Assembly: GCA_964187785.1 (NCBI GenBank)
Contig: OZ076409.1
Span: forward strand, 17,982,001 to 18,046,000
DNA from: Amphiscolops sp. MND2022
Lineage: Eukaryota
DNA length: 64,000 bases
Direction of reading: 5' to 3'
In this document: positions 1 to 62,650 of the stretch, in pieces
Position numbering within the stretch: the first letter of the stretch is position 1
Layout: the number at the start of each line of letters is the position of its first letter
Notes under the pieces: generated by a model
The model's database searches: none
What the model was told of the DNA's origin: nothing
The model's input: only the letters and a program-made list of their open reading frames with translations
Position numbers and translations under genes: made by a program

Positions 1-2354
1 TTAAATGTGTTGCTTATGCAAAGAAAGAAAGGAAAATATGCTTTCAAGGTTCCGTAAGATACCGTCGTGTTGATAGAACGGTATGGAATCATAATACATT
101 ACCGCTTCCTGTTACTCTTGATCCATTAGAATGTAAAAACATTATAGGACATTTAAATGGTACAAATGATAAAATATTGAACAACCTCCACTACAATAAA
201 ACTTTCACACTTTTAGAAGACCATTATTTTCAAGAACGATTAGAACAATATCAAACTCCTTTCACTGTATTCCAATTAAACAAAATGTACACAGGTACAT
301 TTACATTTATGCCTGCTGATAAAAACTGGATATATGACCCTACTCGAAACCCTTATCTTAACTGTCCTGCTCATCATCAATTCGAAGTCAACCTAGTTAG
401 TTGGCGATTAGAAATTTCTGAAGTCGAACTTACGTATGATGACACATCCAATGACATGATAATAGATCGACATACATTACCCTGCTATTTTGCAGATGGT
501 TTTTGTAAACTCACAACGAAAACCCCTTCGGTTCAATGATGACTATTTCCTAATTTGCACATTACAAGACTTCATTGGTCGTATGACAAAAATTGAAGAT
601 AGATACTGGATTGAAACAGACTTTTTTGTACATTCTCCACACTCAATAAAACCCAAAACAACTTTTTGTATCAAAGGTACAGAACATCCATATGTTTATG
701 CTCCTCATACACAACATCCAAATAACCCAAGTCTTTCAAGATTTGAAGTTTTTCCTACGGCACAAACTTTTTGTGGTAAACCAGACCCTCTTTATTCTAC
801 ACAATATTCAGACCTTTTTGTTACATACACTGAAAGTTTCAATATGCATACAGGACAACCCAACCCTCATTCTATGATTGATGAATATATTTCTGGTAAA
901 ACAGTATTGGACACTTCAAATAACAAATTTATATTTCCTGCATTAAATGTTTCAAACAACTTTGCTAACATTGACTATGACGCACATATAAACACCAAAA
1001 TAGATTACACTATTAACCATGTTTTCAGATCAATGACAGTACAAGAACTAAATACACTTCATACAATATGTGAATTAGAACGAAACCAACTTCTTACAAT
1101 ACTCGCAATGTCAGTACAAAATCCTCAACTTGCTGGTTTTCTTTTAACCGGTAATAGAAGTAATTTCTTGTACGTTGAAGGCTTACAAACCTGGCTCTAT
1201 GACTGCCCTCATTTTTTATCTCCTTTATATAAAGCTGATAGATGCTTTGACCGTATACCTATCCTTTTTAGAGATCCCTTAGTGTACGTTGATCCAATTA
1301 CAAGACAAACTTATGACTATGCTACAACAATTACATGTGATAATAATCAACGTAACATTATTGAACTATATCCTGATTCCGATGATCAAGATTTTTACAT
1401 TCTTGGACCTGAACCTATTAAACACAAACCTCCACTAATGTTTACACCAAAACTGAATCAAAACTACAATACGCCCTAACACTTTTACAGCTCAAGATGC
1501 TGGTATAAATTCTAATGCAGAACTCGACCAATTTTGGAATCGTATTTTATTTTCCAAACATTCTGATTCTACACTTCAATTACTAGGCAAAGCTCTTAGC
1601 TATTCTTTAATTTCATCTAATACTCCTAATTATGATGCAGATTCCCCTCAAGATTCTGGTAAACCTTATAATACATTACGTATAGGACTACATGATAAAC
1701 TCTTGAATTTAACTCCTCTTTTTACACCTACATGGTTTTCAGATGCTCTTATTGCACTTTTTGGATATCCTTGTTATATTCTCACACATTGTGGTATATA
1801 CTTTTCTACATTCCTTTTTGTACAAGCTACTCTTACACTCATTGTCAAACTTTACAAAACAATATCCATTAAATATAATCCAAAAAAATAATATTATTTT
1901 ATTTAGCTCTATCGCACATGGTTTTTTTAATGTTCTTACAGCACGAATGGTCAATGACCTCAATGAGACTCAAAACAAAAAACCCAAAAGTACACTTTTA
2001 AAAGCCAAATCCTTAGAAAATTTTATTGACACTTCAACAAATTTAATTAATCATTCTACTGATGTTACTTCCCCTCCACCTTTCTATACTAAACGTCCTA
2101 ACAAAATTCAATTTCCTAAATTTAACTTGTTTCCGAAACGACACCACAATTCTCACCAAAAAACTGCTTCACTTCCTTTCTCTCCTGTTCAACATCCTCC
2201 ATTTCCTAATTATACTCATAAAAACTTTCATCCAAATGACAATCTAACTACTCAACATGACACTTTAATTAACAATTCTGTCACCTCTATTACGGATACA
2301 CCAATTAAAATCTATTCACGGATAAACTATCCTTTTCCTCCTCCATCTTCTTGA
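1..2354 (+). pseudogene. env: Envelope-like glycoprotein, class III fusogen-like (gB/chuvirus G), frameshifted; 5' end outside window
   Basis: ORF pieces 177-539, 490-1479, 1703-1891 and 1743-2354; CELERNQLLTILAMSVQNPQLAG and LYDC...RCFDRIP...YVDPITRQ...C motifs; hydrophobic C-terminal segment followed by a P/S/T-rich tail. Confidence 0.75.
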
Positions 2355-5804: not shown

Positions 5805-6005
5805 GTTGAAAATGAACTCTCACTAGAACCTTGACTATTCGAAACTTCTTCACTTTTGGTTCACATACCCGCCAATGTTGGTTCACAACTCATTGACAAC
5901 TTCACGCTTTAATTCTTCAACTTGAAAAGTTTTCAATGCTGACTAACTCATGTTGATGACAATTTTTTCAAACAAGCCGATGCCTGGTACGAAAAAGAAA
6001 CATGA
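5805..6005 (+). pseudogene. Accessory ORF-e remnant
   Basis: VENELSLEP*LFETSS...SQLIDNF aligns codon-wise with VENELYFEPRLFKSSS...SQLIDNF in C (~25985-26185); in-frame stops in A. Confidence 0.5.
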
Positions 6006-6291
6006 AACATTAAATAGTTGTCAACAATAACTTGACCGAAAACTGTCAGTCAAAGAAACTGAAAGAACTTGAACCTTTTGCACCAATTGAATCGTCTATG
6101 ACGTAAGAAGTCAAATCGTCTTAGGTTGTTCTCACTCCTTAAGTATGGTACACTACAGAACGAAACTCATGCAACACATGCATAACACATATGAAACAAA
6201 CCTATGCATATAACATCTGAAACAAAAACTTTTAGAACTTCTCAAACACAAAGTGCATATATGTAATTTTATTTTTAAATTCCCGGTTGAT

Positions 6292-6704
6292 TGTGATGCC
6301 ATGATGCATGTCCTCAAAGATTCTATAAATCTGAAATACTCTGAACTCCTAACCAAAGTAATTAGTAAATGTAATCTCATTTGAAAGCTAATTATTGTAG
6401 AAGAAACTTCACTTAATATATCCTGTAACAATCTTCTTAGATTCATCCTGATGCTGTCACATTATTAATTGATGAAACCTACCCTAGTTAATAGAATATA
6501 TCTACTCGGAGAAAATGAGAATTCATCCTGACGATCAGTCTTCTCTCCAGCACTTCAAGAACTGAGATCTCAGAAATAGATTGTACTTAGAGCTAGCTAG
6601 CTGCAAGGTATAAAGTAAGACGACCCTGCTGTTAAAATCATAGACTTCTTATGTCAGTAATAAAACATCTAAAAGAAATAACACACACGCTTTTTAACAG
6701 CTCA
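6292..6704 (+). repeat. 3' LTR of element A (413 bp)
   Basis: Begins TGTGATGCC and ends TTTTAACAGCTCA, the same termini as the C LTRs read on the minus strand. Confidence 0.85.
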
Positions 6705-7167: not shown

Positions 7168-9229
7168 TGTTGGAACTAACGTTGACTGAGTTGCCGATGG
7201 GTTCGGAGTTCCCTATTGATTCAGGCTCGATATCATGTCGTAGAACTGAACCTGAAGGTTCAGTGGCGGAATTTGAAAGACCATCTACTTTCGAGGCTAG
7301 ATTTTCGATTAATTTCAAAATTTCTCTTTGTCCAAATTCTGCGTCTCTTAGTCTTTTGGACCGTCGATTTTCAATCTTGTTTGAAATATCTGAGAAGTCT
7401 TGTTCAGTCAAGCAAGTATTTTCATCAGAAGCCTGGCTTGTAGACTCGACATTTTCCAAACTACTACTTGGGTCACTCCTAAGTTTCCTTTTCTGAGATT
7501 TCTCGGGCATCGTCGAAAAGTTTAGTTGATCAAACAGGTTAATTCGACTGGTTTAACTGGTGGTTGAACAAATCAAGAGTTTCCAGAACAAGCTTGTTCC
7601 AATGCAAAGATACAGTCTCAAATCCAAAGAAAACGTTCGCAAGCAAATAAAAGAGTACAATCAATAATTGAAAACTCAAAATTCAAAGTTTTGGGAATTA
7701 CAAATCAAGGTTGAGCTTTCGCGAAATCAAAATAACACTGTCCTTTTCCTTTTCCCACTTCAGGTATTTATACTTTGCGCTAGACACGCGGGATAAATCC
7801 CGCGCGTGAATTCACACTTCGTTCAGCTCGGCGTCCTTCCGAGGCAAGAAAATCCAAGTCAGGTACGCTTCCTCGGGACTCGGCTTTCGGCTTCATCTCA
7901 CTTCAAAGGAAAAGTGGGAATCAACTTCCTGCCGAAGTCCCAATTCCGCGTACCTTTCTTCTTCATCTCCCGCCAATTCAAGACGCCGAACCGAAGTTAG
8001 CACTGAAATTCATGAACCTAGCTACTGAAGCGGGAAAAGGAAATGAAGTTTACATCGAAGAAAATGAAACTCTAAATAAAATAAAACTGCACTAAATTAA
8101 GAAAAATGGGAATTCGGGCATTATTATTCTCATCAACTGAACACAAAATGATCAATTTGGGTGGATTAATTCGTTGGTTAAAGTTCTGGTCGAATGCCAG
8201 GGCGGAGTGTTAAACTGAAATTTTCCGGAACACTTGACCGGATATTGAACATCATTAATCAACACAGTGGGGGGGGGGTTTAACGCAACTTTAATGGCTT
8301 TAGTGAGTATTATATGCCATTCAATCAATAAACGTTCATAACAAATTAATAATCAGCACTTGTCACAATGTAATTAATCTTTCATTCGTTCTCAACTAAG
8401 CAGTTGCCCCGGCGGTCGACCCGGGGTGGGGCTCTACCAACACAGTAATATTTGAATAAAAATACTACAAAACGAACGAAATATTGCTCTGGTGGGGGAA
8501 TCAGGACAAATTAACAATATTATCCATGTTACACTAATGATTAATGCACAGTAATATCAACTATATTTGATCGGTTGTCCCGGTGGTTGTCCCATTTGGA
8601 AAGTAGAGTTGGGTGACCAGGCGGTTGACCTAAATAATAAAACAAATACTTTCATCCTTTAGACCCTTCATTATTTCCATCGGTTATTTATTTGTGGTTT
8701 GAGCTTCTTTTAAGCTCTGTGATCACGATAGAATAGCACAACATGTTATACAGTAATACTATTGCTTCAGTTGTTTCAAGCGTGCGACCAGGCGTGCGAC
8801 CCAGCACTCGGTCGACTGGTGAGCTGCCTGGTATTGCTGTTCAGCTAGCGCGGTGAATTTGCGCTAATCGCTGATTGGTCCGATGAAATTGGAATGAAAT
8901 TTAATCTGCTTTAGCTCCATTGTTATTGTAGCGGTAAATTGATCAGCGTGTTGGCTGAGTTAATTTCGGTCAATATGCTGGTCGCTTTACTGTAAACAAA
9001 TCACACTAATAGCACTTTAATAATATTTAAGTATTTACATATTTATGTATTTTAGGTACTGCGCTGGGTTAATAATGTTTGTTGGATAGTTTAGATGGGT
9101 TGTTTGTTAATTGTTTCTTTCAAGGTGAATGATGTTCTTATTCGGTCCCTTTCTGGTTGATTTCTCTATTTCCTTCCTCTGGCGTTCTCCTTGTATTCGT
9201 TATTTCGCTGCTCCTAGAGGGCTGCGACA
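7168..9229 (-). repeat. 3' LTR of element B (2062 bp), carries a copy of the gag 5' end
   Basis: Direct repeat of 20794-22854. Confidence 0.97.
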
Positions 9230-9773
9230 GTCCCCTGCTTTGGTGAGGGACGTCCACTATGGGAGGTAATGGAGAAATTGGCCTGAAAGGCGACGATATT
9301 GGCGGAAGAAATACCGATTGTACCATTGAATCGTAAGATAGCCAGGACGAATCGGTTGACCAGTCACTTCCTGAGAAGTAACCTATCGAACTAGAGTTAC
9401 TGGAGATGGGGCTGATTGTCCCATCGTGCGGCCCGTATAGCCAATTGTCCATGTTCTCGTAGTTTCTAGGGGGGCTCGTGAATTCGTCATCCGGGATGAT
9501 CGGGTTGGAGTTGACAAATTTCCTGTATGGTAATGTGTCCGATTGGGCCGTTGCTAATATAGATATTGGTGCCGACTCATGATAAAGGACAATATGTTCC
9601 GTCCCAGTGTTAATAATCTCGTAAATATCCTCAATTATTGGTGTTTGAGTATTTTCGCATTTATCACCATGCACCTTAGGTGTTGATTGTGCACAGGGGT
9701 TTACTGGGGCAGCGTCTTGGTCGCGGTCCAAAATGAAATAATCGGTTGAGGAATTGAGTGTCGATGAATTCAT
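9138..9773 (-). CDS. Element B sense-strand 3' ORF, 211 aa, S/P/D-rich, crosses the PPT and ends inside the 3' LTR
   Basis: Intact ORF with ATG; an ORF occupies the equivalent position in element D. Confidence 0.55.
   Translation of the reverse strand: MNSSTLNSSTDYFILDRDQDAAPVNPCAQSTPKVHGDKCENTQTPIIEDIYEIINTGTEHIVLYHESAPISILATAQSDTLPYRKFVNSNPIIPDDEFTSPPRNYENMDNWLYGPHDGTISPISSNSSSIGYFSGSDWSTDSSWLSYDSMVQSVFLPPISSPFRPISPLPPIVDVPHQSRGLSQPSRSSEITNTRRTPEEGNREINQKGTE
9230..9241 (-). other. Polypurine tract of element B
   Basis: AAAGCAGGGGAC immediately before the 3' LTR on the minus strand. Confidence 0.7.
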
Positions 9774-10054: not shown

Positions 10055-13000
10055 ATGTCAAATTCGACTGACGAAGATGATCAACGACTGTTACAGGCAG
10101 GAAAGATTGGAGTTATGGAGAGCGAGGGTGAAGCAGTGTTAGGAGGAGGGGAAGTCGCGAGTGGTCTGGATGAAGGGAATGGGGAGGAATCGCAATTGAT
10201 TATTGCTGAGACAACTGATGAGGCTGTCACTGGAGATTCTCCTGTTGAGTTGGAAGTTCCGGTGTCTTGTGGTGGGCGTGGATTTGGAGAAAAAGATGAT
10301 GACAGCGACTCTGATAAATCTGGGTCTAGTCTGAGTGAAGTTGGTGTTCCCCGCGGCGATACCGGTGACGATGATGATGATGATGATGGAGGAAATTCTG
10401 TGCATTCAGCATCTAGTGACGCCCGCCATGAATTGGACTATTTGCATGATTTAAAGGGTGAGTTCCTTAGCGAATTGTTAGTGGCCAGCTAACTTTTCAT
10501 GCTAGTATACAGACGCGTCGTTTCATCCAACTTGTCTGTGTTTTAGGCTTGTCTGACGATTCTCATGATGAGGATTATGTTCCTGGGTCTTCTGTTCGCG
10601 TGTCAGCTACTGTGGAACGTGTCCGTCGCGAAGTGTCCTTCGTTGAAGGCAGTCCCGTGAAGCGTGGTCGTTGGTCCTGTTCTGGGACACCTGCCAGGGA
10701 AACTGCTACTGCTGCACCTAATGTAGAGACTAGTGGTGGGTAAATCTTCTCCTTTGTTATCACATGTCATTTGTCCATACTTTGTATATTTTTGATTATA
10801 GTCGTTTCCTCACCATTTGGGATGCATACGTCTGCGGGGGTTCATTCGACGGACTCTGAAGGTGTTTTGCCAGTGACGGGGGGCTTTGCTTTCAGCGAGG
10901 AGCCTGGGTGTAGTGATCAGCCTAAGCGGGGGCGGACCCAGCATGCTCGTCTTGCCGAAGGCCTGGAGCGCTCTGTGATCCACAATGAATGGGCTAAAGG
11001 TGATTATAGTTTTGTTGTTGGGTTATTAGTGGTTGTTATTTTGGTCTGTCCTTCGTTTTTGTTTTTTTTTGTTTTTGCCGTATGCAGTCTGTCTGAACTG
11101 TGTTCACCCATGATCTTCTTTTTAGCTGGGTTGAAGGATGTGCCAGAAGGTGCTGTGTGTATGTCGGCATCACAGGTTTTGGCTTTCGGCCAGGCAGCTG
11201 TTCGATTGGAGCGGACCCAGAGTCGTGTGGAGGATCGTTCATTGTCGCGCCGTTAGTATTGCACTCTTATGGCTCATTTCCAGCATCAGTAGTTATCATC
11301 TTTATACTCCGTGTATTTCTTGATTCGATGATAGTTGATTGGAGAGGGGCGGGATAGTAGGTTTCGGGGTGACTTGGTAATGAGTGTTTGTATTTCTGTT
11401 TGTAAGTCTGGACGAAATCATGCGCCTGCTCAAGCAAAAAGGGATCCAACTGCATCGAGTCCGTGGGCATTTGAACGCTGAGGAGGAGACCAAGAGCAAA
11501 TTGTTTGCGAAGTACGAGAGAAGGAAAAAACGGCAAAGCGAGCGTCATGTTCTTCGCAGAGAGATGGCTACACATGCGATTCCTCGGCTCTTTGTTAGCC
11601 GAAGGACTGATAAGAACCCAAACGGGTTCAATTGTGCGATTTGCCGTAAAGATGTTTCGTTTCTGTCGCGTGGGGAGCTGGAAATCTGGAGGCATTTCGG
11701 TCGCAAAACTCATTTCGCAAAGGACCGACGATATCGGCTTGACCATGAAGATTGCATCTACACAGAGAAGTTTGATGAGATTGCTGTTGCCACCATATCA
11801 CCAGAGTTGCGTGCTGAAATTGAGCTGACGCCCCCTGTTGTTCTTGGACCAAAGAATGCGTTCGAGGAGGATGAGGTGGACGCTCTTGTGGGCGTAGTTT
11901 CCAATGTGCCTTGCTCAACCTTGGTTGGGGGTTTGTTTGAATTGTTGCGGAGTGGCGGGTCCCACAGCTTCCTTAGACGTTTGTGGAGTCAGTTCAGGAC
12001 GACCATCCCCGTGGAGACCAGCTATGCCCAGGCCACCTGGAGTAAAACTGAGTCATTTGTTATTTTGTGTCAGACATTGTATCCCCGAATTTTGCGTCGG
12101 GTGCAATCTGGTTGTAAGCTGTCTGACTTCAGTATTTCTTTCCGGCGTGACGATAGTGGGGTGCAGTGTTATGTCCACTTCTTTGCTAGCGATGTCGTCC
12201 GCGAGGTTTGTGTGCTGTGGGAAGAAGTCTCTCCTGGGCTGTGCGATGCGGAGATCAAGTGCTTGACCCGCGTCCTCGCGATTCTCCCAATTGATCAGTC
12301 TCCAGTTGCTGTCCGGGGCTGTCCTTCGACGCTGTTCAATGTGTTTTCTTCGTGGTGCAAGGACGAAGGGCGACCGGTGCCACTGCCTGTGCTGGAGTAT
12401 ACCCCTGATGTCTTTAGAGAGCAAATTCGTGAAGCTGGCTTAGTTGGTGCAAACTTGTTGGATCCATTTGCTATTTTGGACTATTTGCTATTGCGCTTGG
12501 TTAGAGCCGTCCACCAGCCTTGGTTAGAGTCTCTGCCGACTTTTCGTGTGTGTATAAGCCAGCGCCAGGTGCCGTTTCCTTCTTTGCGTGCTGCTATCTC
12601 AGAGTTGATACATCATTGGGCCGATGTGACACTATTCTTGAAAGAGACGGGGACTGTTCTTCCTTCAAAGGGCAAGGCTCCTCTTGACGTTGGTCAGCTC
12701 ATTGTGTCGGATACCCTAGTGTTGCCCCGATTGAGTGTCTTGCATGTTCTTGTTGCGTGCTTCGAGGCCAACTTTGTGAAGCAGTTTGATGAATCAGTGA
12801 CTGACTACACCTGTCGTAATTATTCCGATTTCTGCTATTTTTATTGGAGTTTGCTCGGCAAAGTCAAGAAGTTGAGTAGTCTGCCTGAGATCGAGGCTTG
12901 GAGCCAGTACATCGGTCGTCCCTTGACTACGTGGGCTAATATCCCTTTCGTCGAGTGTCTTCGTGGTGAGCCCCTTGTGACCGTGGCCTTATCAGCTTGT

Positions 13001-13996
13001 GGAGATACTGTTCGGCGGCCTTTCCTCCGTGAGTGCCATGGGTTTCTTTCGGAATTCTTGAAGGTGTTAAATCAGTCGGCATATGCGAAGTCTGTCCTGT
13101 CCTCAAATCTGAGCTGCTTTTCGCCTGATATGATGTTGTTGGGCGATGAATCTTACGCAGTTCAATTGTTCAAAGATTTGACGACTTGTCTTCTTGACTG
13201 TGGGCGGTTGGCGTCGTTGGATTGTGAGGCGGCCAGTAATGAGTTCAAATCTCTACTTGTGGAGTTACGGCGTCGGAATCGGCGTGTTGTGTCGTCGATC
13301 AAGGACAGTTTTGTATTCTTGCGGGATTCCGGACTTCTAGACTGCCGGCTGAATTTGGATAAGGTGGTACAAATTGCTGCAATGGCGATGGTTCCGCGGT
13401 GTGTCAATTATCCTGTCGTGGATATGTCCTTGAGTGGAGCTTTGGTGCCGAAAAAGATCCTGTTGTCTTCGATATTTGCTTGTCAGTCATATGTGACATT
13501 CAGGAAGTTTGCCTCCGGAGAGTTGTTGACCAGGGACTGTCTAGAAGAACTGAAAACCAATTTGCCGAACGGGAAGGGTTTCATGGAGGACGCTTCGTTT
13601 ACACCGTGGAGGCCGTTGTATGCTCATACCCGCTGTGATATGTATCGAAGATTGCGAGATGCTTTCGATGCATACTATCTGGATCAAGTATCGGAATGGC
13701 GTCGACGAGCTGGATTGGGCTTGTATGCCGCGACCGCGTCTCCTGATAAATTGTTACCCGAGTTGCAATTCTCGCATGCTGCATCTGTTGTTGAGGAGAA
13801 TGTTGGGACTTCTTCCGCCGTTAATACTCCCCCTTCAGTGAAGTCTGTCGGCAAAACGGTCAAGCAGGCGGGTGGTTCTGGCAGTATTGCGGAGATCGTC
13901 AAGATGAAGAAAGATCTTCGGCAAAGTGGTGTGTCTGGGTCGTCGTCTGGTAAAGGCAGTTCTAGTGGGTCAGTGAAACGTGGATCCGGGCGATGA
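10055..13996 (+). CDS. Antisense spliced gene in element B: acidic N-terminus, BED-like zinc finger, hAT-transposase-like body
   Basis: Frame-consistent exons 10055-10457, 10547-10735, 10802-10999 and 11126-11251 with GT..AG introns; long open exon ~11400-13996 containing CAIC-x(16)-H-x(5)-H; junction between exon 4 and the long exon unresolved; homologous to 50731-54643. Confidence 0.8.
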
Positions 13997-19754: not shown

Positions 19755-21136
19755 GACTCCATTTCTGGTGGTGCCATGGTTTGTGGCTGCTGCATCGGGA
19801 TCGTTTGTGGGTTTTGTGTGATGGGAATATTATTGGGGGGCGTTGTTTTAGGTGTTTTCCACCATGAGGGGCGGTTTGCCCAATTCGCTCCAGAGAAGCA
19901 GTCTTTCGTTTCGTGGCTCATTTTGCCACATGTCTCGCAGGGAGTGGATTGAGTTGGAGCGTTTGTTTTTTGGGATCGTTTGTCCCGATTGGTTTTCCTG
20001 CAGTTTCGTAGGAGGTGACCTGGGTTGCCGCACCCAAAGCATGGTCCCGTTGTTCTGGGGGGATTGTTTTGTTGCTGTTGTTGTGAACTGGGTTCGATGT
20101 TGTGGACTCCTGTGATTGAAAGGCTGTCGTTGGTAGCGAGTCCATTGAGTTCGATTTCTCGTTCCAAGTGCTGTACCATTGTCTCGTACGATTCTGTTTC
20201 TAGTCTTGCCTGGTTTAGGACCTTCTTGAGGTGTGGTGGCATTTTTGCATAGAAGGATGTTTCTATGAATCGGGGGGCGTCCTCTCCATAGGCTTCTTGT
20301 GCTAGTTTTTGGTATTGCTCCAAGAAGTCTGGGAAGGTTTGTTGGCTTGGGTTAAATGACAGATTTTCCCATTTGCACCGTACAGTTGCCACTGACTGCT
20401 GTCGGACGTATCTCCTGCGGAAGCCTGCCAGGATGTCATTCAGGTGTTCGCGTGTTGCTTCCGTCATGTTCCTGAATGTTTGTAACGCTTCGCCTCTCAG
20501 GAGGGAGTGAAAGTAATGGATCTTTTCTTCTTCAGTGATGTTCGGGTATACTTTGAGGCTTGTCTGGAAAAGGTCCTCAAAGTGCTCGAACTTGTCCGTT
20601 TTCCCGTCGAAAGTCGGCATCGTAGTGGACATGGCTTTTGGTAGCCTGGGGACGCCTGAGTTGTTTGTTGTTGCCGTTTGCAGCGATTGTAACAGTTTAT
20701 CAATGATGTCATCGGGGTACCTCTGGTTTGGAGGTGGCAGACTTGATGATCGTTGATGATTTTCTTGATGGTTCGCAGAGACTCCTGTCACCATGTTGGA
20801 ACTAACGTTCACTGAGTTGCCGATGGGTTCGGAGTTCCCTATTGATTCAGGCTCGATATCATGTCGTAGAACTGAACCTGAAGGTTCAGTGGCGGATTTT
20901 GAAAGACCATCTACTTTCGAGGCTAGATTTTCGATTAATTTCAAAATTTCTCTTTGTCCAAATTCTGCGTCTCTTAGTCTTTTGGACAGTCGATTTTCAA
21001 TCTTGTTTGAAATATCTGCGAAGTCTTGTTCAGTCAAGCAAGTATTTTCATCAGAAGCCTGGCTTGTAGACTCGACATTTTCCAAACTACTACTTGGGTC
21101 ACTCCTAAGTTTCCTTTTCTGAGATTTCTCGGGCAT
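19742..21136 (-). CDS. gag: Gag of element B, 464 aa, two CCHC knuckles; starts within the 5' LTR
   Basis: PTFDGK...FEDLF capsid-like region; CFGCGNPGHLLRNC and CETCGKMSHETKDC. Confidence 0.93.
   Translation of the reverse strand: MPEKSQKRKLRSDPSSSLENVESTSQASDENTCLTEQDFADISNKIENRLSKRLRDAEFGQREILKLIENLASKVDGLSKSATEPSGSVLRHDIEPESIGNSEPIGNSVNVSSNMVTGVSANHQENHQRSSSLPPPNQRYPDDIIDKLLQSLQTATTNNSGVPRLPKAMSTTMPTFDGKTDKFEHFEDLFQTSLKVYPNITEEEKIHYFHSLLRGEALQTFRNMTEATREHLNDILAGFRRRYVRQQSVATVRCKWENLSFNPSQQTFPDFLEQYQKLAQEAYGEDAPRFIETSFYAKMPPHLKKVLNQARLETESYETMVQHLEREIELNGLATNDSLSITGVHNIEPSSQQQQQNNPPRTTGPCFGCGNPGHLLRNCRKTNRDKRSQKTNAPTQSTPCETCGKMSHETKDCFSGANWANRPSWWKTPKTTPPNNIPITQNPQTIPMQQPQTMAPPEMESKNS
19748..19754 (-). 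promoter_or_regulatory. -1 ribosomal frameshift heptamer A AAA AAC (element B)
   Basis: Lies at the gag end; the -1 frame is continuous with pol; same heptamer in D at 59985-59991. Confidence 0.85.
20781..20793 (-). other. Primer binding site of element B (tRNA-Leu-like), inside the gag ORF
   Basis: TGGTGACAGGAGT directly after the LTR-terminal CA; first 12 nt identical in D; tRNA identity inferred. Confidence 0.8.
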
Positions 21137-22854
21137 CGTCGAAAAGTTTAGTTGATCAAACAGGTTAATTCGACTGGTTTAACTGGTGGTTGAACAAATC
21201 AAGAGTTTCCAGAACAAGCTTGTTCCAATGCAAAGATACAGTCTCAAATCCAAAGAAAACGTTCGCAAGCAAATAAAAGAGTACAATCAATAATTGAAAA
21301 CTCAAAATTCAAAGTTTTGGGAATTACAAATCAAGGTTGAGCTTTCGCGAAATCAAAATAACACTGTCCTTTTCCTTTTCCCACTTCAGGTATTTATACT
21401 TTGCGCTAGACACGCGGGATAAATCCCGCGCGTGAATTCACACTTCGTTCAGCTCGGCGTCCTTCCGAGGCAAGAAAATCCAAGTCAGGTACGCTTCCTC
21501 GGGACTCGGCTTTCGGCTTCATCTCACTTCAAAGGAAAAGTGGGAATCAACTTCCTGCCGAAGTCCCAATTCCGCGTACCTTTCTTCTTCATCTCCCGCC
21601 AATTCAAGACGCCGAACCGAAGTTAGCACTGAAATTCATGAACCTAGCTACTGAAGCGGGAAAAGGAAATGAAGTTTACATCGAAGAAAATGAAACTCTA
21701 AATAAAATAAAACTGCACTAAATTAAGAAAAATGGGAATTCGGGCATTATTATTCTCATCAACTGAACACAAAATGATCAATTTGGGTGGATTAATTCGT
21801 TGGTTAAAGTTCTGGTCGAATGCCAGGGCGGAGTGTTAAACTGAAATTTTCCGGAACACTTGACCGGATATTGAACATCATTAATCAACACAGTGGGGGG
21901 GGGTTTAACGCAACTTTAATGGCTTTAGTGAGTATTATATGCCATTCAATCAATAAACGTTCATAACAAATTAATAATCAGCACTTGTCACAATGTAGTT
22001 AATCTTTCATTCGTTCTCAACTAAGCAGTTGCCCCGGCGGTCGACCCGGGGTGGGGCTCTACCAACACAGTAATATTTGAATAAAAATACTACAAAACGA
22101 ACGAAATATTGCTCTGGTGGGGGAATCAGGATAAATTAACAATATTATCCAAGTTACACTAATAATTAATGCACAGTAATATCAACTATATTTGATCGGT
22201 TGTCCCGGTGGTTGTCCCATTTGGAAAGTAGAGTTGGGTGACCAGGCGGTTGACCTAAATAATAAAACAAATACTTTCATCCTTTAGACCCTTCATTATT
22301 TCCATCGGTTATTTATTTGTGGTTTGAGCTTCTTTTAAGCTCTGTGTTCACGATAGAATAGCACAACATGTTATACAGTAATACTATTGCTTCAGTTGTT
22401 TCAAGCGTGCGACCAGGCGTGCGACCCAGCACTCGGTCGACTGGTGAGCTGCCTGGTATTGCTGTTCAGCTAGCGCGGTGAATTTGCGCAAATCGCTGAT
22501 TGGTCCGATGAAATTGGAATGAAATTTAATCTGCTTTAGCTCCATTGTTATTGTAGCGGTAAATTGATCAGCGTGTTGGCTGAGTTAATTTCGGTCAATA
22601 TGCTGGTCGCTTTACTGTAAACAAATCACACTAATAGCACTTTAATATTATTTAAGTATTTACATATTTATGTATTTTAGGTACTGCGCTGGGTTAATAA
22701 TGTTTGTTGGATAGTTTAGATGGGTTGTTTGTTAATTGTTTCTTTCAGGGTGAATGATGTTCTTATTCGGTCCCTTTCTGGTTGATTTCTCTATTTCCTT
22801 CCTCTGGCGTTCTCCTTGTATTCGTTATTTCGCTGCTCCTAGAGGGCTGCGACA
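20794..22854 (-). repeat. 5' LTR of element B (2061 bp)
   Basis: Direct repeat of 7168-9229, followed by the PBS on the minus strand. Confidence 0.97.
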
Positions 22855-25283
22855 GTTACCAACCGTGATTAAACGCAAGCCCAACCGTCGTTGTATAAAG
22901 GCTCCAAGGAAGGCACAATCTATTGATAGCTACTCGTAGTGGAAAAAAAGTTGGAGCCCAAGACATTGTGCCAGATACAATCCCTCTATCCTGATTGATC
23001 ATTTGGAGGGCGACAATCGAAACTACTTAATCAACAAGCCAAACCTGAACCGGAGTTTGATAAAACGGAAAACGTATACAATCTGTTGGCTAATTGGTTA
23101 GGAACTGGAGGCGCCAGCATGCAAGAAAGACGAGCTTTCATGTCACGATGCAAGTAAACAAGCAACGGCATTACGTGGCGCTACATCAAAAGCTCGAAAA
23201 TAGCAAAAGGACTTCAAAGTGTCAGTAGTCTTTTTACAGTACCCAAAAAAAACAAATGGGTCGCAAAATATCACAAAAACTGGAGGGGGCCATTAGGAGA
23301 AAAAAAATCACAAGGCCAAAAAAACTGACAGGAAACTCTTTAGTGTCGCCCGGTATTGTTTGCCACGCTGAAAAAAAAAGAAAAAACCTTTTTGATTCAG
23401 TTCCCTAGCCCAAATGTTTCAATTTGACACAATAAAATTTTATTAGAACTTTGGAGAACTATTTTGGTCAGCTAGTGTGGATTTAAAAAAAGTTCACTAT
23501 AATAGTCGCGTTTTACTTCATGAAGCGCCGACTAAAAAAGGAAACTTCATTCAGTATTTGGATGCATTGGAACATCTGAAAAGCCAAGGTTTCCAAGAAC
23601 AGTCCATCACTACGAGACGTTATGAAATCTTGTATGGCTTTGTGGACTATGTTTGGCGCCGAGAAATAGCTGTCATTTACTGCCTCCCTCTGTGGAATCA
23701 CTGCCTTTTACCACATACCAACTTCGGAGACATCGTCCTCAACAGAACAAACGGCAACCATCCGATGCTCCATGTTTGCCATATTTGCCTCCGCCCACTC
23801 ATTTTAGACAGTCGAATTGGAACCTCCGATACCCCAAAGGGCTTGTTTCATTTGCGGACTATCAGTGCGTTTTGGTAGTGAGTGTCACACTCGTGACAAA
23901 GGTCGCAAGCCAACACAGTGGCAGCTCCGTATGTAACGGCACCCTGTGACCGACCAAATTTTCGACGTTTTGACAATTTTCTGAAAAATTCGTTCAAAAG
24001 TGACGTGGCCCTCAAACATAAGTTCACGGGGTACCAGTCCCGCAAAAATCATAAAGAGACAGAGCAAGCAGCTCCCGCGAGGCGGAAAAAAGAAGGGAAA
24101 TGTCAAAAAGACGTGCAAAACGTCACAGAACCGAAAAACTGTAGCCTATGCGCTAATTTCCACGGTGCCCATCATAGTTCGTGCGGAACCAGTATGTCGG
24201 AGTGATCGCAATATCAATACCCAGGGTTGTGCCAAACCCGAGTGCCAGTGCCATGCCACACAGACCCAATTCGCCGAACTGGATTTTAACTCTTATTTGA
24301 TGCATTTACCGATTTGTTTGATGAATTCTTGATCCGAGAGCTACCACTGTTATTGTTCATGTCATTTACGTTAGATTCCCATCTGGATTGTTTAATGTAG
24401 TTCTATGCAACTTAGCCCCTTTTTAACAGGCTATTTACGCAGTGGACACGAAGAAAAAGCGTATTTCATGTGACTAGTAGCAGTAACAGGCCGGAACAGG
24501 TCAGAAGGCATCCTTAGAGACGGTTCTCCCTACTCGGGACCGACATTCCTGAGGAGGACAAAATGGACTGGAGCTATGATGATTAGTCCCGAATCTTAAT
24601 CCATGGCATCAGTTCCTCCACCCTGTGTAGCGAACAAACGCTAAGCGCTTTTCATTACAGTACTTGTAGCTCAGGAAAAGTTATGCGAGCATAGGGAAAC
24701 ATTAGCGTGTGAATGCACAGGACCTTTGTTTTCTCTGAACTGTGGTATGACTGAGCATGCTGCTTCATAGTGTACGAACATGGTTATGATTGATGAGCTG
24801 AATTACCGCAGGCAGACTGAAACGGAAAAACTGCAGTGGGGCGCTCATTCTATCCCTTATGATATGGTGTTCATGCAGCTTTCAGCGCACCGAGCTGCAC
24901 TTAACGCTCCCTCGATTACAACCCGCGGAGAAAAAAGGCGCAAACCATCATAGAGCCTGCCATCATGGAAGCGGCGCAAACCATCATGGACGAGCAAACA
25001 ACCTGCTATTCTAGTTTTCGAAAATCTAAAGCTCGATGTGGATCGCCAGGGACGATCTGAAACCCGGTGTATAAGAAGATAGAGATACCACTTTCAAAGA
25101 CATACCAGGACAAGCATTGCAGAAACAGAATAACAGATACACTTGGCAAAAACCCCATTGACTGGAAAGGCCATGTAGATGGTGTTGACAAAAATCCGAT
25201 TCCAGCGTAATGCTGCACGCATTTCCAGACTTTCCGTGATTACACAGGAGGAGTATCTCTAGAACGTCAAGAGTTATGTCATC

Positions 25284-25725
25284 TGAGCTGTTAAAAATTT
25301 GTGATATAGTTCTTTTTAGGTCTTTCATGTAGTACGTAAGAAGTCTTACATTCTTAACAGCAAGTTCGTCTAGAGTATCAAGTTTACTGAATAGCTAGCT
25401 ACTTCTAATGTCTATGAGATCTCAGCTGGATACTTAGAAACCGTTTCTCAGTTAATACTCTAATTTTCTCCCAGTAGATATAGTCTACAAATTAGTCAAT
25501 GATTACAATTAGTTATATTGTCATGCTAATAGATTAATAGTGACAACAGTAAGAAGGGTAGGATAGAGTAACCATTACATTGTCACAAGTCATAAGTTAG
25601 GTTATGTCCAAATGTCAGAAGCATAGTCAACTTCAGTTGACTAGAAATGAAATGACATCTATCTCTTTGAATTAGGTTATTTCGAGGTATTTAAAAGTTT
25701 TTAAGACATGTATCATGGCATCACA
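25284..25725 (-). repeat. 3' LTR of element C (442 bp)
   Basis: Direct repeat of 42546-42999 with a 12-bp indel and scattered substitutions. Confidence 0.95.
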
Positions 25726-25984
25726 ATCAACCGGGAATTTTTGAAAATAAAATTCATTCATCTGCACTTTGGAAGTGTGGAGTTCTGAAGTGTTTTTGTC
25801 TTGCATGAAATTTTGTTCTAGAAAAGCACTGTACTTAAGGAGCGAGAACAACCTAAGACGATTTGACATCTTACATAAGTGACGATTCAAATTGGTGCTA
25901 AAGTTTCAGTTTTCTTAACTGACAGTTGCGTTCAAGTTATTGATTGACAACTTGTTCACTAGTTTATGTGATATATTAGTTTTG

Positions 25985-33188: not shown

Positions 33189-36100
33189 TTATTTATAGAG
33201 TTTTGAGGGTGGTATGATGAGTCTGTAATCCATTTGTGGTTGGCGTCTTAAAGGGTAATGAGTTTTGGTAGTTCTGTCTATTGGAGGAGGATGTATATTA
33301 GGTTGATTTTGAGATATGTGTCGGGGTCTGTCAATAAGGATGTCAGTGTGAGGAGTTCTAATTATTTGTTTGGAAGGTGAGTTGTAAATGGGTTTGATAG
33401 GTGATTGGTTATTTGAGGAAGAAGTTGGACAGTTGTAATTGGATGTATTAGAAGGCATCAGAGTTTGTTGAGATGATTCATCATCTGAAGGTGAGTCATC
33501 AGAGTTAAAGGGGGAAGAATCACTATTTGATGGTTTGTGGAATGTGACATTGAGTAGTATCAGAAAACCGCATGAAACTACGTAAGTGTGGGTACAAAAG
33601 TGGGTCATTTGGGTAGTATGGAATTAAATGGTTTCAATGAACGTGTACTGTAGAGCCATCTTGTGAAAGGAGTTCATAAGTGACATCTGATAATCTGTCA
33701 AGAATTTTGTCTGGTCCTATCCGAAGCGGTTTTAGTTTGTCAGGAAAGTGAACGTGAGAAAAGTTGCGTTTGAGAACAAAGGTTCCAAAAGGGATTGGTT
33801 TACCTGCGTGGTAAGTTTTTGTGATATATGCATGTGAAATGATTTTTTCAGGGTGTTTTCATGGACTGTAGAATATATTTGTAACATAGTGGTTTCTACA
33901 GAGAGAAACCGAAGTGGAATTGGTTTAGACAATGTTCGATAAAGGAAAGGATTCAAATCAGTTTTGTCATAATGGGAGTGTTCTGGAAGTTGAGAGCAGT
34001 ATTGCGAGATACATGTTTTAGTAGTATTACGGTTGAGGTTTAAGTCAAAGGTAAGGGGAATTCTTGGTTGTGTATGAAATACAATTTCGTGAGGAGAAAC
34101 ATTGAGTTCTGTAGGGGGTTGTGAATTATGTGCATAAGCGTACATGTGAACTTGAAAAGCCCAGTCTTTGGGGGTGTCATGAAGAAACATTCAAATGTGT
34201 GTACCAAGATTTCTGTTTTGTATTTCGACAAGACCATTGGTCCAAAGGGAATAAGCTGTTCGGGGGGAGTGTCTAATCCCCATTAGTGTACAAAGATGTG
34301 TCATTTCTTTATTGACATATTCTGATCCGCGATCAGTAACAAAATATATGGGTGGTCCAAATTTATTGATCCAATGATGGAAGAAAGTTTTTATAGAAGT
34401 TTTGGCGTTATTCGATTTGATTGGTACTGTAACTAAGAAATAACTGAAAGCATCACTTATGACATGAACGTAGGATTTGTTGTGCGAAAGAGGATTTATA
34501 GGTCCTTTTGAATTCATGGAGATACGGTAGTTGAAATATGGAGCGTGTTCTGAAAATGATTGTGTTGGAGCAGTTTGAATTTTCATATTGAAGTGTTTTT
34601 TTCTTTGACATTCTATACAGTCATGTATGAAGATTGAGAGCCATTTTTCAAGAAATGGATTGTACTAATGTTGGGAAAATGTATTGTATGTGATTTTTAA
34701 TTCCAGTATGAGAATGTTCATGAAGTTTGTTGAAGACTTCGAAACATACGAAATAGAAGACAAATTCTAATGGTATCACGTATGATATTTGGAGAAGAGG
34801 TTTGATTTATGGTAGGTCACCTACCATAAATCAAACCTCTTCTCCAAAAATCATACGTGATACCATTAGAATTTGTCTTCTATTTCGTATGTTTCGAACA
34901 GTTACTCTACACAGTTACTCTACACAGTTATGTTTCTCTACACAGCAAATACAAATTCACGGTGAATTTGTATTTGTTGTGTAGAGACTAATGAGAATTG
35001 TGGAGTCTTCTATAAAAAGTTGTGAAAAACTTTTGTATTATGCGTGTAAAAAGGGAGTAGCAGTGATGAGTGGTGTGAGGAATTCTGGTTCTCCTTACGA
35101 GTTAACCAGGAATATACAGTTCGGAGAATTGGGTCTGAGATTATTGTTGTTGAAGAGTTTTGAGGTCTAGTGAATAATCGTCTGTAAGGAAGAAGCCTTG
35201 AAAGTAATTTTTGTATTTGAAAAATGAAGTATCATTGAAGGGTATTATTTGTGAGCAATGAGTGGTATGACGTGAGGGTGATTGAACATATATTGCTGAT
35301 GCAACCTCATGAGATGTAGTAGATATTGGTGGGTTAATGCTTGAGTAGGATTGGATTCAGTTTTAACCTGTAAAGAGTTGTCTGATGTAAAGGAGGAGTC
35401 TTGTTTTGGAATTCGGGTAGATATATGTTCTTCATCATCACTTGTAATATCAGTGTCATTGAGTAAAAGAGATTGTTGATGAAGGGATTTGTTGTTCTTT
35501 TTGATGGGTGTTTTGAATTTTGTTGGAAATGGAGTTACAGATTTATATGAAAAGGAGGTTAATGGTTTAACGATAATATAATTGCCTTTATCATTTATTC
35601 GGATGGAAAATTGGTCTGTTCCATAATCAGCAAGTATTGGATGAGAGTCATTTTTTTGGTGTGGTAAAACTTCTTCATGTTTGATTAAGTAATGAACAGG
35701 TTTGAGTGTACTGTCTTGTAAAAAAGCAAAATCGATTTGTGGTGGTAATTGTTTGTGCTTTAATTGGTTAAGTTGAAGTTCAGTTTTTGTAAAAGAACGA
35801 CTTAACATGTCGGCAACAGAGAGGTTTTTTCCAGGAGTGTGGATAATTTTTAATTTGGAAAACTTTGTTAATTGCATTTGTGCACGGTAAAAACGTGGAC
35901 TGAGATTATCTTTTTTTGTAAAGCAGTGTAAGAGGGGTTTGTGATCTGTAAAAACGTGTATTGGGTGTGGAGAACCAATGATGAGAAATTCATATATTTG
36001 TAAAGCGTGTACTATACCAAGGAGTTCTCGATCAAGGGTAGAACGTTTTTTTTCTTGTGGATTTAAAATGCGAGAGTTATACGAGGTAACTTTCATTTTG

Positions 36101-42530: not shown

Positions 42531-42543
42531 GAAGATCGCACCA
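42531..42543 (-). other. Primer binding site of element C (possibly tRNA-Gly-like)
   Basis: TGGTGCGATCTTC begins 2 nt after the LTR-terminal CA; tRNA identity is a guess. Confidence 0.7.
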
Positions 42544-42545
42544 AT

Positions 42546-42999
42546 TGAGCTGTTAAAAATATGTGATATAGTTCTTTTTAGGTCTTTCATGTAGTACGTA
42601 AGAAGTCTTAGATTCTTAACAGCAAGTTCGTCTAGAGTATCAAGTTTACTGAATAGTTAGCTACTTCTAATGTCTCTGAGATCTCAGCTGGATACATTCT
42701 TTTCAGATCGAAACCGTTTCTCAGTTAATACTCGAATTTTCTCCAAGTAGATATAGTCTACAATTTAGTCAATGATTACAATTAGTTATATTGACATGCT
42801 AATAGATTAATAGCGACAACAGTAAGAAGGGTAGGATAGAGTATTCATTACAATGTCACAAGTCATTAGTTAGGTTATGTCCAAATGTCAGAAGTATAGT
42901 CATCTTCAGTTAACTAGAAATGGAATGACATCTATCTCTTTGATTTAGGTTATTTCGAGATATCTAAAAGTTCTTGAGGACATGTATCATGGCATCACA
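42546..42999 (-). repeat. 5' LTR of element C (454 bp)
   Basis: Direct repeat of 25284-25725. Confidence 0.95.
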
Positions 43000-45921: not shown

Positions 45922-47182
45922 CTGAAACAAAAACGTTCAAGTGAGCAATTTCAATTTCTCGAATCACGATTGAATGTTATGATTGACAGCCTATGAAGCA
46001 TAAGATAACCGGCTAAGTTATTTTTCATCCAAATGAAGGCCTCAATGAAGGCAGCACATTAGCTGAAAAAGTCGAAGATTTTAACAACTTGATTTAACAG
46101 ACTTACTTGATTAATGTTGGGTCTGTCATGTTAATTAGCTATTGCAATTCTGAATACAGTGCCATACCATTTTTCCAGAAAAAAAATTCATCAAGTTTTG
46201 TGGTTTTTTTTCAGTTATGTCAAGTTCCTCAAAAAGCAATTCAGGCCAACTTTCCTTTCAGTTCGGTGCAACATCGCGTTTAACCAGCTCTATTATAACG
46301 CAAATATTTAAAAAGTCTCAGCAAAGTAAGTTAATATTCTTCTACTAATGATGAAATTATATGTCGATGTCTAACAAATGGAACTCAAAACTCGAATTGA
46401 ATCGATCTAAGATTTCAGAAAAAAGTGTATACCCATACTATTTCATTGCAAATGTGATTGGAACGATGTCAGGGTGTTACGGCCGATTAAAATACACCCA
46501 ATGATATAATGGCCTATTGTTTTGGGGAGAATAATAAACGTCCAGACAGTTGTCAAACTAAACACCGTCAAAAGAAAGCAATCAAGATGTTCCACGGCGA
46601 CATTTTTCTGTTGCTCCAAACGCAGGAGCGAAGCGAAGAGGAATTACGTGCCATTACCGGTACAGGGGCTGGTTATGACGAACAACTACTTGGAGAGAAT
46701 ACGAAGCGCCCCGGAAGGAGACCGGCCAAGTTATACAACAATCTCTCCTAATATTGGGGTCAAGTCCTCTTTGGACGAAAGTGTCTTGGGCACAAGGTCC
46801 CTTGATGTAAAGCCCTAAAGCGCAGTGTCCTAGAACCGGTCAAAAGATGCAAGCAATGGCCTAAAAAAGTACGCAATTTTTGTTGAAAATTCACAAAGTG
46901 ATCAAATTCTGAGTTGAAATTTCGAAAGATTCGAGTGACAGACCCATCATAACTAGATTGTGTCTGTAACTAGAAATAATGTCTGTAATTTATGCCCTCT
47001 GATAAATTGAATTATTACTTTTATTATGTTACGGGCATGCTCAGTTATCAGACAGTTAATTGATTAGCGAAATGATCCTTCTGTGCCAAAGTTACGTAGG
47101 ACAGTTCTAGCAGGCAAGTTCCAGTGTTCTGATTTAACTAAAAGGTGCCCAGACCTCATGCATTCCTATAGAACTTATCACC

Positions 47183-61689: not shown

Positions 61690-62650
61690 AAGAGATTGTT
61701 GCAAGAGGTAAGACTTTAAATTAACTTCTCAGGCTTGCACATTAGAGTAGTATTACTAGAAAGTAAGTAACATTGATGTGTAGTTTAACAATTGTGTCCC
61801 CGGGACTAAATGTCCCGGCTAAATATATTAGAAACTACATGACATTCAAAATATGGGTTGTCACATTCTAAAAATAGCCTTAAGAGCTTTCTAAAAATAG
61901 CAACAGTTCTAAAAATAGCAACGGTTAACTAGTGACATCATCATGATGCAAGTGACTTCAAAAAAGTTTTCCCGACAGGCAACGTGTTGGCGGGAAGACC
62001 GTGTGTCTACTAGACATATTAACAGCGTAGATATACTAAAGCAAAATTACATGTGTTCCAGCATTTTACATGAGATTTATCAATAGCACCCCACATTTCA
62101 TTAATATGTTGTCTTTTGACACTAAGTGTCCATTTTATGAGAAATTAAAGGCCTTTCCAAGTTGTAAATAAGTGTACTTGTAATTTAGCACCTTTAATTT
62201 AAAAGTGGACTTAGCATCCAATCGACAGGGCAGTCCTCATTTTATTTATTGGCAAGCGGCATATGGCCGCCTAGTCCAAAGATCAAAGCGCTGCATAAAG
62301 TATTGCATAGTAGGACTGGTTATTCAAATACTGCACTCTGATTGGTTGAAGCTCATTCGGACTTGCTGTCCAAGGCGACAGGCGAGGAAACATTTGAGCA
62401 CGTTTCCTCTACCTGTACGCCTTGGTGTCCAATTTACTAGCAACGTACAATTAGCGCCGGTATTACATAACACCAAATCATAACTTTAAATGATATTTTA
62501 CATTCAAAATAAGCAAATTACATGACTTCTAAGATATAATTGCAGTTTAAGTGTAAAAGTTTCAATTTAAAGGGATTGTGCTGGGTAGGCCTTTTTGATA
62601 GTTATGGCAAATGGAATACATATTGCCATCACAGGCGGACGCCTGGGACA
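61121..62650 (-). repeat. 5' LTR of element D (1530 bp)
   Basis: Direct repeat of 47183-48691 with small insertions. Confidence 0.95.

What the first reader, a model, noticed from the sequence alone, without database searches (positions are those of the whole stretch)
6080..6123. 3' block that is a collinear antisense copy of U5 and the PBS in the env-bearing lineage
Seen in A: 170-210 nt upstream of the 3' LTR lie GCACCAATTGA (6080-6090), TGACGTAAGAAGTC (6099-6112) and TCGTCTTA (6116-6123). In order, these are complementary to the LTR-end/PBS junction TCAATTGGTGC (visible in C at 42538-42548; the PBS of A is outside the window), to LTR GACTTCTTATGTCA (6643-6656, one G-U) and to TAAGACGA (6616-6623). 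C shows the same three matches, imperfectly: 25887-25898, 25865-25877 and 25854-25861 against 42538-42548, 42595-42607 and 42628-42634. Inference: a long-range 5'-3' RNA duplex circularises the genome and covers the PBS with a primer mimic (...GCACCA). This is reminiscent of Ty1 CYC pairing or Tf1 self-priming but differently arranged.
Basis: partly seen in the sequence, partly recalled or inferred. Interest (0 to 1): 0.8.

Follow-up and report, generated by a model that had tools for sequence, protein, structure and literature searches.

The report
End-joining clamp in envelope retrotransposons
A family of large envelope-carrying retrotransposons in an animal genome keeps a conserved stretch near its far end that is complementary to its own start and likely folds the RNA into a circle and holds the host tRNA primer, a trick known from yeast elements but arranged differently here.

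Summary
Observation confirmed base for base. The block (6080-6123) is the best partner of element A's own 5' LTR end/PBS among 657 windows of its interior (-25.6 kcal/mol; mean -6.4, sd 2.5). In 42 copies of three subfamilies the block and its LTR targets are conserved islands. One pair runs C-G, U-G, U-A and G-C along the tree, which points to plus-strand RNA pairing. A sister clade (64% pol identity) has a rewired version that pairs just behind the PBS, with one compensatory change. Self-priming is not supported: the PBS matches host elongator tRNA-Met over 11 nt, and 8 aberrant copies carry 15-41 nt of that tRNA copied behind the LTR. Best reading: a 5'-3' RNA clamp (like Ty1 CYC) joined to a 3' tRNA anchor (like Ty3's bipartite PBS) that masks part of the PBS. 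Limits: covariation rests on one pair per clade, transcript ends are unmapped, and three further env families show no such block. New variant of a known kind.

The parts
6080..6090 (+). Block segment 1 (H1): complementary to the LTR end, the 2-nt spacer and the first 6 nt of the PBS
   Evidence: conservation 0.95 over 38 copies; duplex -19.8 kcal/mol against -21.6 for the tRNA 3' end
6100..6112 (+). Block segment 2 (H2): complementary to LTR 6643-6655; holds the covarying pair 6100/6655
   Evidence: C-G 18, U-A 11, G-C 6, U-G 5, unpaired 2 of 42
6116..6123 (+). Block segment 3 (H3): complementary to LTR 6616-6623
   Evidence: 82% of cells paired
6124..6147 (+). Conserved tail, predicted to pair with tRNA-Met positions 34-62 (anticodon arm, variable loop, T arm): likely 3' tRNA anchor
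   Evidence: conservation 0.95; -21.3 kcal/mol, better than all 2059 windows of element A and reached by 11 of 2000 shuffled tRNAs; not significant in whole-element alignment scans
6280..6291 (+). Conserved non-purine motif at the place of the polypurine tract
   Evidence: conservation 0.94
6292..6704 (+). 3' LTR of element A (TG...CA, 413 nt, 4-nt target duplication TATG)
6616..6623 (+). LTR target of H3
   Evidence: conservation 0.92 against 0.77 for the whole LTR
6628..6635 (+). 5' arm of a predicted LTR-end stem; partner 6694-6701
   Evidence: 92% of cells paired, no two-sided change
6643..6656 (+). LTR target of H2, in the loop of the LTR-end stem
6694..6704 (+). 3' arm of the LTR-end stem plus the terminal TCA, start of the H1 target
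466..1479 (+). Part of element A's env (class III-like fusion protein)
   Evidence: PF24664, E 6.6e-14
25830..25898 (-). Block plus tail of element C
25284..25725 (-). 3' LTR of element C
42533..42543 (-). PBS of element C (tRNA-Met; one G-U, last base unpaired)
42546..42999 (-). 5' LTR of element C (target duplication GATG)

Best explanation
The block is a conserved 3'-UTR element of an env-bearing Ty3/gypsy clade that is complementary to the LTR end and PBS and likely pairs with them in the genomic RNA, closing it into a circle, while its tail is predicted to hold the anticodon and T arms of the host tRNA-Met primer. Shown: the element's anatomy, the complementarity, the conservation of both partners, one stepwise compensatory pair in this clade and one in the sister clade, and tRNA-Met as primer. 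Inferred: (1) H1-H3 bring the two RNA ends together, and H1 covers 6 of the 11 PBS bases. (2) A Gag chaperone anneals tRNA-Met to the tail, making up for the short PBS, and the tRNA 3' end displaces H1 from a 3-5 nt toehold. (3) Reverse transcriptase then peels H2 and H3 off in the order it meets them, while the tail keeps the primer-cDNA tethered about 150 nt from the 3' LTR, which would favour minus-strand transfer in cis.
For: Best duplex among 657 windows. Partners are islands of 0.91-0.95 conservation in an LTR of 0.77 over 38 copies. 88% of cells are paired, against 34-38% when partners are slid. Pair 6100/6655 keeps pairing in 40 of 42 copies through four pair types, with U-G copies lying between C-G and U-A on the tree, and it is the only one of 414 pairs of highly variable columns that is at least 95% pairable. 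A fixed G-U in 33 of 42 copies fits plus-strand RNA, not minus-strand DNA. Clade E: its block tops 112 windows in both elements tested, and 3 of 20 elements show a U-A to G-C double change between the post-PBS leader and the block, a target that exists only at the 5' end. PBS = 11-nt complement of host tRNA-Met; 8 aberrant copies extend it by copying that tRNA. Tail against tRNA-Met -21.3 to -23.9 kcal/mol, against -9.7 to -11.9 for five other host tRNA genes; 35 of 42 copies at p<=0.05 (copies not independent). Clade E's island also matches tRNA 47-60. Precedents: Ty1 CYC5-CYC3 and Ty3 bipartite PBS (PMC4974528, PMC11381356, passages).
Against: Only 2 of 33 pairs show any two-sided change, and the key pair is helix-terminal; its mutual information (0.57) is below that of unrelated columns that track the phylogeny (up to 0.93). 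In E, 2 of 20 elements have a G-A mismatch at the covarying site. H2+H3 without H1 beat all 20 shuffles in only 18 of 42 copies (no pseudoknots allowed). The tRNA-arm match is not significant in whole-element scans (A: 139 of 200 shuffles as high), was seen by eye before it was tested, cannot covary, and tail bases predicted unpaired are as conserved as paired ones. E island against shuffled tRNA: 57 of 2000. Families F, G and H have the same primer and an env, but no such block, so it is not needed across the lineage. Transcript ends are unmapped.
Confidence: 0.6

Rival explanations
1. Splint or local fold: H2 and H3 pair with the 3' LTR copy (R or U3, about 500 nt downstream) rather than the 5' copy. 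H1 alone, or nothing, reaches the PBS, so the block either aligns donor and acceptor ends or shapes 3'-end formation.
For: The covariation was measured against 3' LTR copies and cannot tell the two LTRs apart. An AATAAA lies behind H2's target in A (6659-6664), so the targets may be in R. No RNA data place the ends.
Against: H1 (conservation 0.95) and E's post-PBS helix have targets only at the 5' end. H2+H3 alone bind weakly, about -1 to -18 kcal/mol net, against -25 to -29 with H1. The three segments are collinear with one continuous 5' strand.
Confidence: 0.2
2. Relic plus protein site: the block arose from an aberrant antisense copy of strong-stop DNA and tRNA, and is conserved because proteins bind it and the LTR motifs, not because they pair.
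For: Such fold-back and read-through products exist in this genome (L084, L087). Most pairs never covary. Tail bases predicted unpaired are invariant too.
Against: Four pair types at one site with a G-U intermediate. Clade E keeps complementarity with entirely different sequences and targets.
Confidence: 0.1
3. DNA-level fold-back: the minus-strand copy of the block pairs with the tRNA-cDNA junction at the 5' end of the same strand, affecting primer removal or plus-strand start in an element without a purine tract.
For: The geometry allows it, and the family lacks a polypurine tract.
Against: The G-U fixed in 33 of 42 copies and the U-G intermediate would be A-C mismatches on the minus strand. 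In E the first target (post-PBS) is not in strong-stop DNA.
Confidence: 0.06
4. Self-priming: the RNA is cut after GCACCA and the genome's own 3' part primes minus-strand synthesis, as in Tf1.
For: The block ends a 6-nt stretch exactly like the tRNA 3' end.
Against: An 11-nt match to host tRNA-Met, of which the block covers only 6; 5 aberrant copies on A/C/D LTR ends and 3 on E ends carry 15-41 nt of tRNA-Met behind the LTR; PBS variants keep G-U pairing to the tRNA; E, F, G and H share the PBS without the mimic.
Confidence: 0.03

Closest known systems
Ty1 CYC5-CYC3 cyclization (PMC4974528, PMC7969010; passages read)
   Same: Direct pairing of 5' and 3' genome sequences near the PBS; in Ty1 needed for initiation and rescued by compensatory mutation.
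   Different: Ty1 is a copia element and CYC5 lies downstream of the PBS. Here (Ty3/gypsy) the A/C/D block covers the LTR end and PBS start in three collinear helices; only clade E pairs downstream of the PBS. No functional test here.
Ty3 bipartite 5'-3' PBS (PMC11381356, PMC4974528; passages read)
   Same: Short 5' PBS (8 nt in Ty3, 11 here) with further tRNA-Met-complementary segments in the 3' UTR.
   Different: Ty3 uses initiator tRNA and circularises through the tRNA bridge. Here the primer is elongator-type tRNA-Met, the predicted site covers anticodon and T arms, and it abuts direct genome-genome helices.
Drosophila gypsy 5' and 3' PBS (PMC1635307; abstract and discussion read)
   Same: Env-bearing Ty3/gypsy with a 3' tRNA site able to bridge the ends in vitro.
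   Different: Its 3' site was dispensable for cDNA synthesis, and no antisense cover of the PBS is described in what I read.
Tf1/Sushi self-priming (PMC6317226 passages; mechanism recalled)
   Same: An element-encoded sequence is complementary to the PBS.
   Different: Those elements lack a tRNA-complementary PBS and (recalled) prime from the transcript's 5' end. Here a host tRNA primes and the complement is 3'.
gB-type env Ty3/gypsy 'errantiviruses' (PMC13524379; passages read, supplements not read)
   Same: gag-pol-env order with a class III-like env.
   Different: That survey excluded elements with LTRs more than 14 kb apart; these are 17.7-20.7 kb. Placement in its tree was not tested.
Sirevirus inverted repeat at the PPT/3' LTR junction (PMC2829016; passages read)
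   Same: A conserved 3' internal sequence complementary to the LTR in an env-bearing lineage.
   Different: Its left arm borders the PPT and the right arm starts about 28 bp inside the LTR. Here the block is 170-210 nt upstream and targets the far end of the LTR and the PBS.

Membership tests
Ty3/gypsy LTR retrotransposon | gag, then RT, RNase H, integrase in that order | tested here: met
   Pfam on A's and C's frames; protease motif seen by eye in a family copy
Ty3/gypsy LTR retrotransposon | Direct LTRs, target duplication, tRNA PBS | tested here: met
   TG...CA LTRs, 4-nt duplications, 11-nt tRNA-Met PBS
Ty3/gypsy LTR retrotransposon | Polypurine tract before the 3' LTR | tested here: not met
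   A C/G-rich non-purine motif in A/C/D, E, F, G, H; the window's two env-less elements have purine tracts. Usual, not the feature used for classification.
Ty1 CYC-type cyclization | Conserved direct complementarity of 5' and 3' regions | tested here: met
Ty1 CYC-type cyclization | 5' partner downstream of the PBS | tested here: not met
   Not in A/C/D (targets are LTR end and PBS); it is so in clade E
Ty1 CYC-type cyclization | Needed for initiation, rescued by compensatory change | not testable with these tools
   Only natural covariation is available
Ty3-type bipartite PBS | Short 5' PBS | tested here: met
   11 nt
Ty3-type bipartite PBS | 3' UTR segments complementary to other arms of the primer tRNA | tested here: inconclusive
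   Significant on the conserved island, not in whole-element scans
Ty3-type bipartite PBS | tRNA shown to bridge both ends | not testable with these tools
   Needs annealing assays
Tf1-type self-priming | PBS not complementary to a host tRNA | tested here: not met
   tRNA-Met match and read-through copies
gB-type env errantivirus group (PMC13524379) | Class III-like env behind pol | tested here: met
   PF24664 in A and C; tblastn hits in E, F, G, H
gB-type env errantivirus group (PMC13524379) | Position in the published pol tree | not tested
   Their sequences were not fetched

The most novel reading that the evidence does not exclude
The 3' block is a PBS gate with a hand-over tether: it keeps the PBS shut until tRNA-Met is loaded on the adjacent tail, then passes the 5'-3' link from RNA-RNA helices to the tRNA as reverse transcriptase advances. 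Sister clades rewired the genome-pairing half around a shared tRNA-binding core, in a lineage that also starts its plus strand without a purine tract.
Probability: 0.25. Interest if true: 0.75.

Novelty: new variant of a known kind. Interest (0 to 1): 0.55.

Why it matters
End-to-end pairing before reverse transcription has been shown by bench work in a few model elements (Ty1, Ty3, Drosophila gypsy). Here natural covariation supports it in a high-copy animal lineage with an envelope, in a form that appears to join both known solutions and adds partial masking of the PBS. Two sister clades solved it with different partners, which gives ready-made natural variants for testing whether circularisation serves initiation or strand transfer. 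Nine literature searches (open-access library only) showed no description of this arrangement.

Tried and rejected
No RNA holder was listed by the sequencing-run search, so start and polyA sites stay unmapped; this is no evidence on expression. The first tRNA scans were uninformative: 40-nt duplexes (A 12 of 40 shuffles as low) and an alignment with lenient gaps. A stricter scan was significant only for 1 of 10 last-400-nt regions (L120, 1 of 500). A second tRNA-like site in A near 5969-5999 is not conserved in subfamily D and was dropped. My first idea that E's island binds the D arm was replaced by the T-arm register. Pairing of A's post-PBS leader with sequence upstream of H1 is not conserved. 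Variant Val and Leu tRNA genes also end in a PBS complement, but have acceptor-stem mismatches, and the read-through copies are Met-specific. A search for deletions joining the PBS directly to the block found 0. The mini element L087 appears once among 5 hits, so it does not show that the block is required. Homology of the E and C/D blocks (14 of 16 nt) is only suggestive (15-30 of 300 shuffles for L121 against three copies; not for L100). Family F (11 of 30 fetched copies aligned) has a conserved island next to the LTR but no clear long-range partner; G and H were tested on one copy each. Three look-ups in earlier scan notes returned nothing. The host group was not established; a literature search on a recalled guess gave nothing relevant. 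The HIV-1 parallel (a U3 motif complementary to the primer's anticodon stem) is recalled; one search did not list the primary paper.

Full report
Setting. The window is G000:C1:17982001-18046000 of a 1.07-Gb genome. Elements A (+ strand, 3' part in the window) and C (- strand) are Ty3/gypsy retrotransposons with gag, RT, RNase H, integrase and a class III-like env (PF24664), 20.7 and 17.7 kb long, with TG...CA LTRs and 4-nt target duplications. The family is abundant (3888 candidates in the first look). The host group was not established.

The observation. All 11 strings stand at the cited places. A's own 5' LTR and PBS were fetched and read ...TCA|ATTGGTGCGACC. Cofolding the last 100 nt of that LTR plus 15 nt with 657 sixty-nt windows of A's interior put the block first at -25.6 kcal/mol; the next was -16.5 and the mean -6.4, sd 2.5. 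The model has three collinear helices, H1 to H3. In the window's C copy the block ranks 2nd and 3rd of 112 windows.

Conservation and covariation. I aligned 42 of the 91 A-, C- and D-type 3' ends fetched, leaving out near-duplicates and most copies whose LTR end my motif search did not find. Over 38 rows, H1-H3 and their LTR targets score 0.91-0.95, against 0.77 for the whole LTR and 0.75 for the loop between targets. Of all cells 88% are paired, against 34-38% with slid partners, but only 2 of 33 pairs show a two-sided change. The informative pair is 6100/6655: C-G 18, U-A 11, G-C 6, U-G 5, unpaired 2. On the tree the U-G copies sit between the C-G and U-A copies of subfamily C, and subfamily A has G-C. 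Among 414 pairs of columns with three or more common bases it is the only one at least 95% pairable. Its mutual information is not the highest for that column, so the evidence is kept pairing, not correlation. A G-U fixed in 33 of 42 copies favours plus-strand RNA over minus-strand DNA. The LTR also holds a stem, 6628-6635 with 6694-6701 (92% paired, no two-sided change), which would make H2 a pseudoknot or an alternative state. Without H1, H2+H3 beat all 20 shuffles in 18 of 42 copies.

The primer. A pattern search found 18 hits and 0 for the reversed control. Among them are host tRNA-Met(CAT) genes whose 3' end pairs with 11 PBS bases; the G1-C72 pair and the anticodon stem mark it as elongator type (my reading from general knowledge). 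Eight aberrant copies carry 15-41 nt of this tRNA copied behind the LTR, 5 on A/C/D ends and 3 on E-type ends. Self-priming is therefore not supported. H1 (-19.8 kcal/mol) and the tRNA end (-21.6) compete for the same bases.

The tail. The island continues to 6147 with conservation 0.95. This tail is predicted to pair with tRNA-Met 34-62 at -21.3 kcal/mol. None of 2059 windows of element A binds it as well (best -15.6), 11 of 2000 shuffled tRNA bodies do, and five other host tRNA genes give -9.7 to -11.9 against -23.9 for a slightly longer tail. Against this: whole-element alignment scans were not significant, the match was seen before it was tested, and bases predicted unpaired are just as conserved. 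I rate the anchor likely, not shown.

Sister clades. Clade E (59-64% pol identity) has no GCACCA cover. Its 3' UTR has a different island (0.94-0.99 over 24 rows) that tops 112 windows in both elements tested. It pairs with the leader just behind the PBS and with an LTR site about 120 nt from the LTR end, and its first 15 nt match tRNA-Met 47-60 (57 of 2000 shuffles). Of 23 elements 20 yielded a 5' junction. At one post-PBS pair 15 have U-A, 3 have G-C and 2 have a G-A mismatch (L140 was misregistered by the script and is counted as U-A). E also has an LTR-end stem of unrelated sequence. Families F, G and H (F is 47% identical to A in RNase H) share primer and env, but no block stood out; H has a full 18-nt PBS.

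Mechanism. Best supported (0.6): in the genomic RNA the block clamps the 3' UTR to the 5' end and half-covers the PBS; tRNA-Met is caught on the tail, takes over the PBS, and stays tethered near the 3' LTR while reverse transcriptase removes H2 and H3, aiding minus-strand transfer. The pairing is supported by comparison; the order of events is inference. The main rival (0.2) is that H2/H3 use the 3' LTR copy, which cannot be excluded without transcript ends. Lesser rivals: protein-bound relic (0.1), minus-strand fold-back (0.06), self-priming (0.03).

Known systems. Ty1 circularises by CYC5-CYC3 pairing and Ty3 by a tRNA bridging a split PBS (PMC4974528, PMC11381356, PMC7969010: passages). Drosophila gypsy has a 3' PBS that is dispensable for cDNA synthesis (PMC1635307: abstract and discussion). 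The Sirevirus inverted repeat is local to the PPT (PMC2829016: passages). Tf1-type elements lack a tRNA PBS (PMC6317226: passages). gB-type env Ty3/gypsy elements are described, but elements over 14 kb were excluded (PMC13524379: passages; its supplements were not read and may list tRNA-Met elements). The block works like Ty1 CYC and probably like Ty3's 3' PBS, but matches neither layout. Searches showed no description of it.

Verdict. Real, conserved and probably functional; a new variant of a known kind. Interest 0.55; 0.75 if the gate and hand-over reading (probability 0.25) holds.

Noticed in passing
window 6280-6291; L099-L118: All five env-bearing families seen have a C/G-rich, non-purine motif where the polypurine tract should be; the window's env-less elements have purine tracts and another PBS. 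The plus-strand primer is unexplained.
   Followed up: partly
L087:1076-2245: Integrated mini element with a 4-nt target duplication: LTR, 24 nt of copied tRNA-Met, a jump to about 110 nt upstream of the block, block, LTR.
   Followed up: yes
L084:1089-2000; L085, L091, L098, L229-L231: Aberrant ends with 15-41 nt of tRNA-Met copied behind the LTR, several past position 58; L084 is a head-to-head LTR junction.
   Followed up: yes
L099-L104, L111-L112: Clade E LTRs end in TA and family G LTRs in AA rather than CA, judged by their 4-nt target duplications.
   Followed up: no
window 6562-6573 and 6592-6601: Conserved palindromes in the LTR upstream of the H3 target; candidates for dimer linkage.
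   Followed up: no
L031:7436-7769 and window 88-421: Element A carries an internal duplication near the env start, which partly explains its 20.7 kb against 17.7 kb for C.
   Followed up: no
window 11384-13996 (+): 870-codon stop-free antisense frame inside env-less element B (LTRs 7168-9231 and 20794-22856), no Pfam hit.
   Followed up: no
window 34738-34987: An 80-bp near-perfect inverted repeat and a smaller one interrupt C's pol region.
   Followed up: no
window 58605-59594 (-): Weak dUTPase hit (E 2.3e-4, just under the cut-off) behind the protease of the env-less element with LTRs 47178-48691 and 61115-62650.
   Followed up: no
L234-L263, last 45 nt before the 3' LTR: Family F has its own conserved island next to the LTR, with a small local hairpin and no clear partner.
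   Followed up: partly
L093-L097, L199-L228: Host tRNA genes lie in long tandem arrays with many anticodon variants.
   Followed up: no
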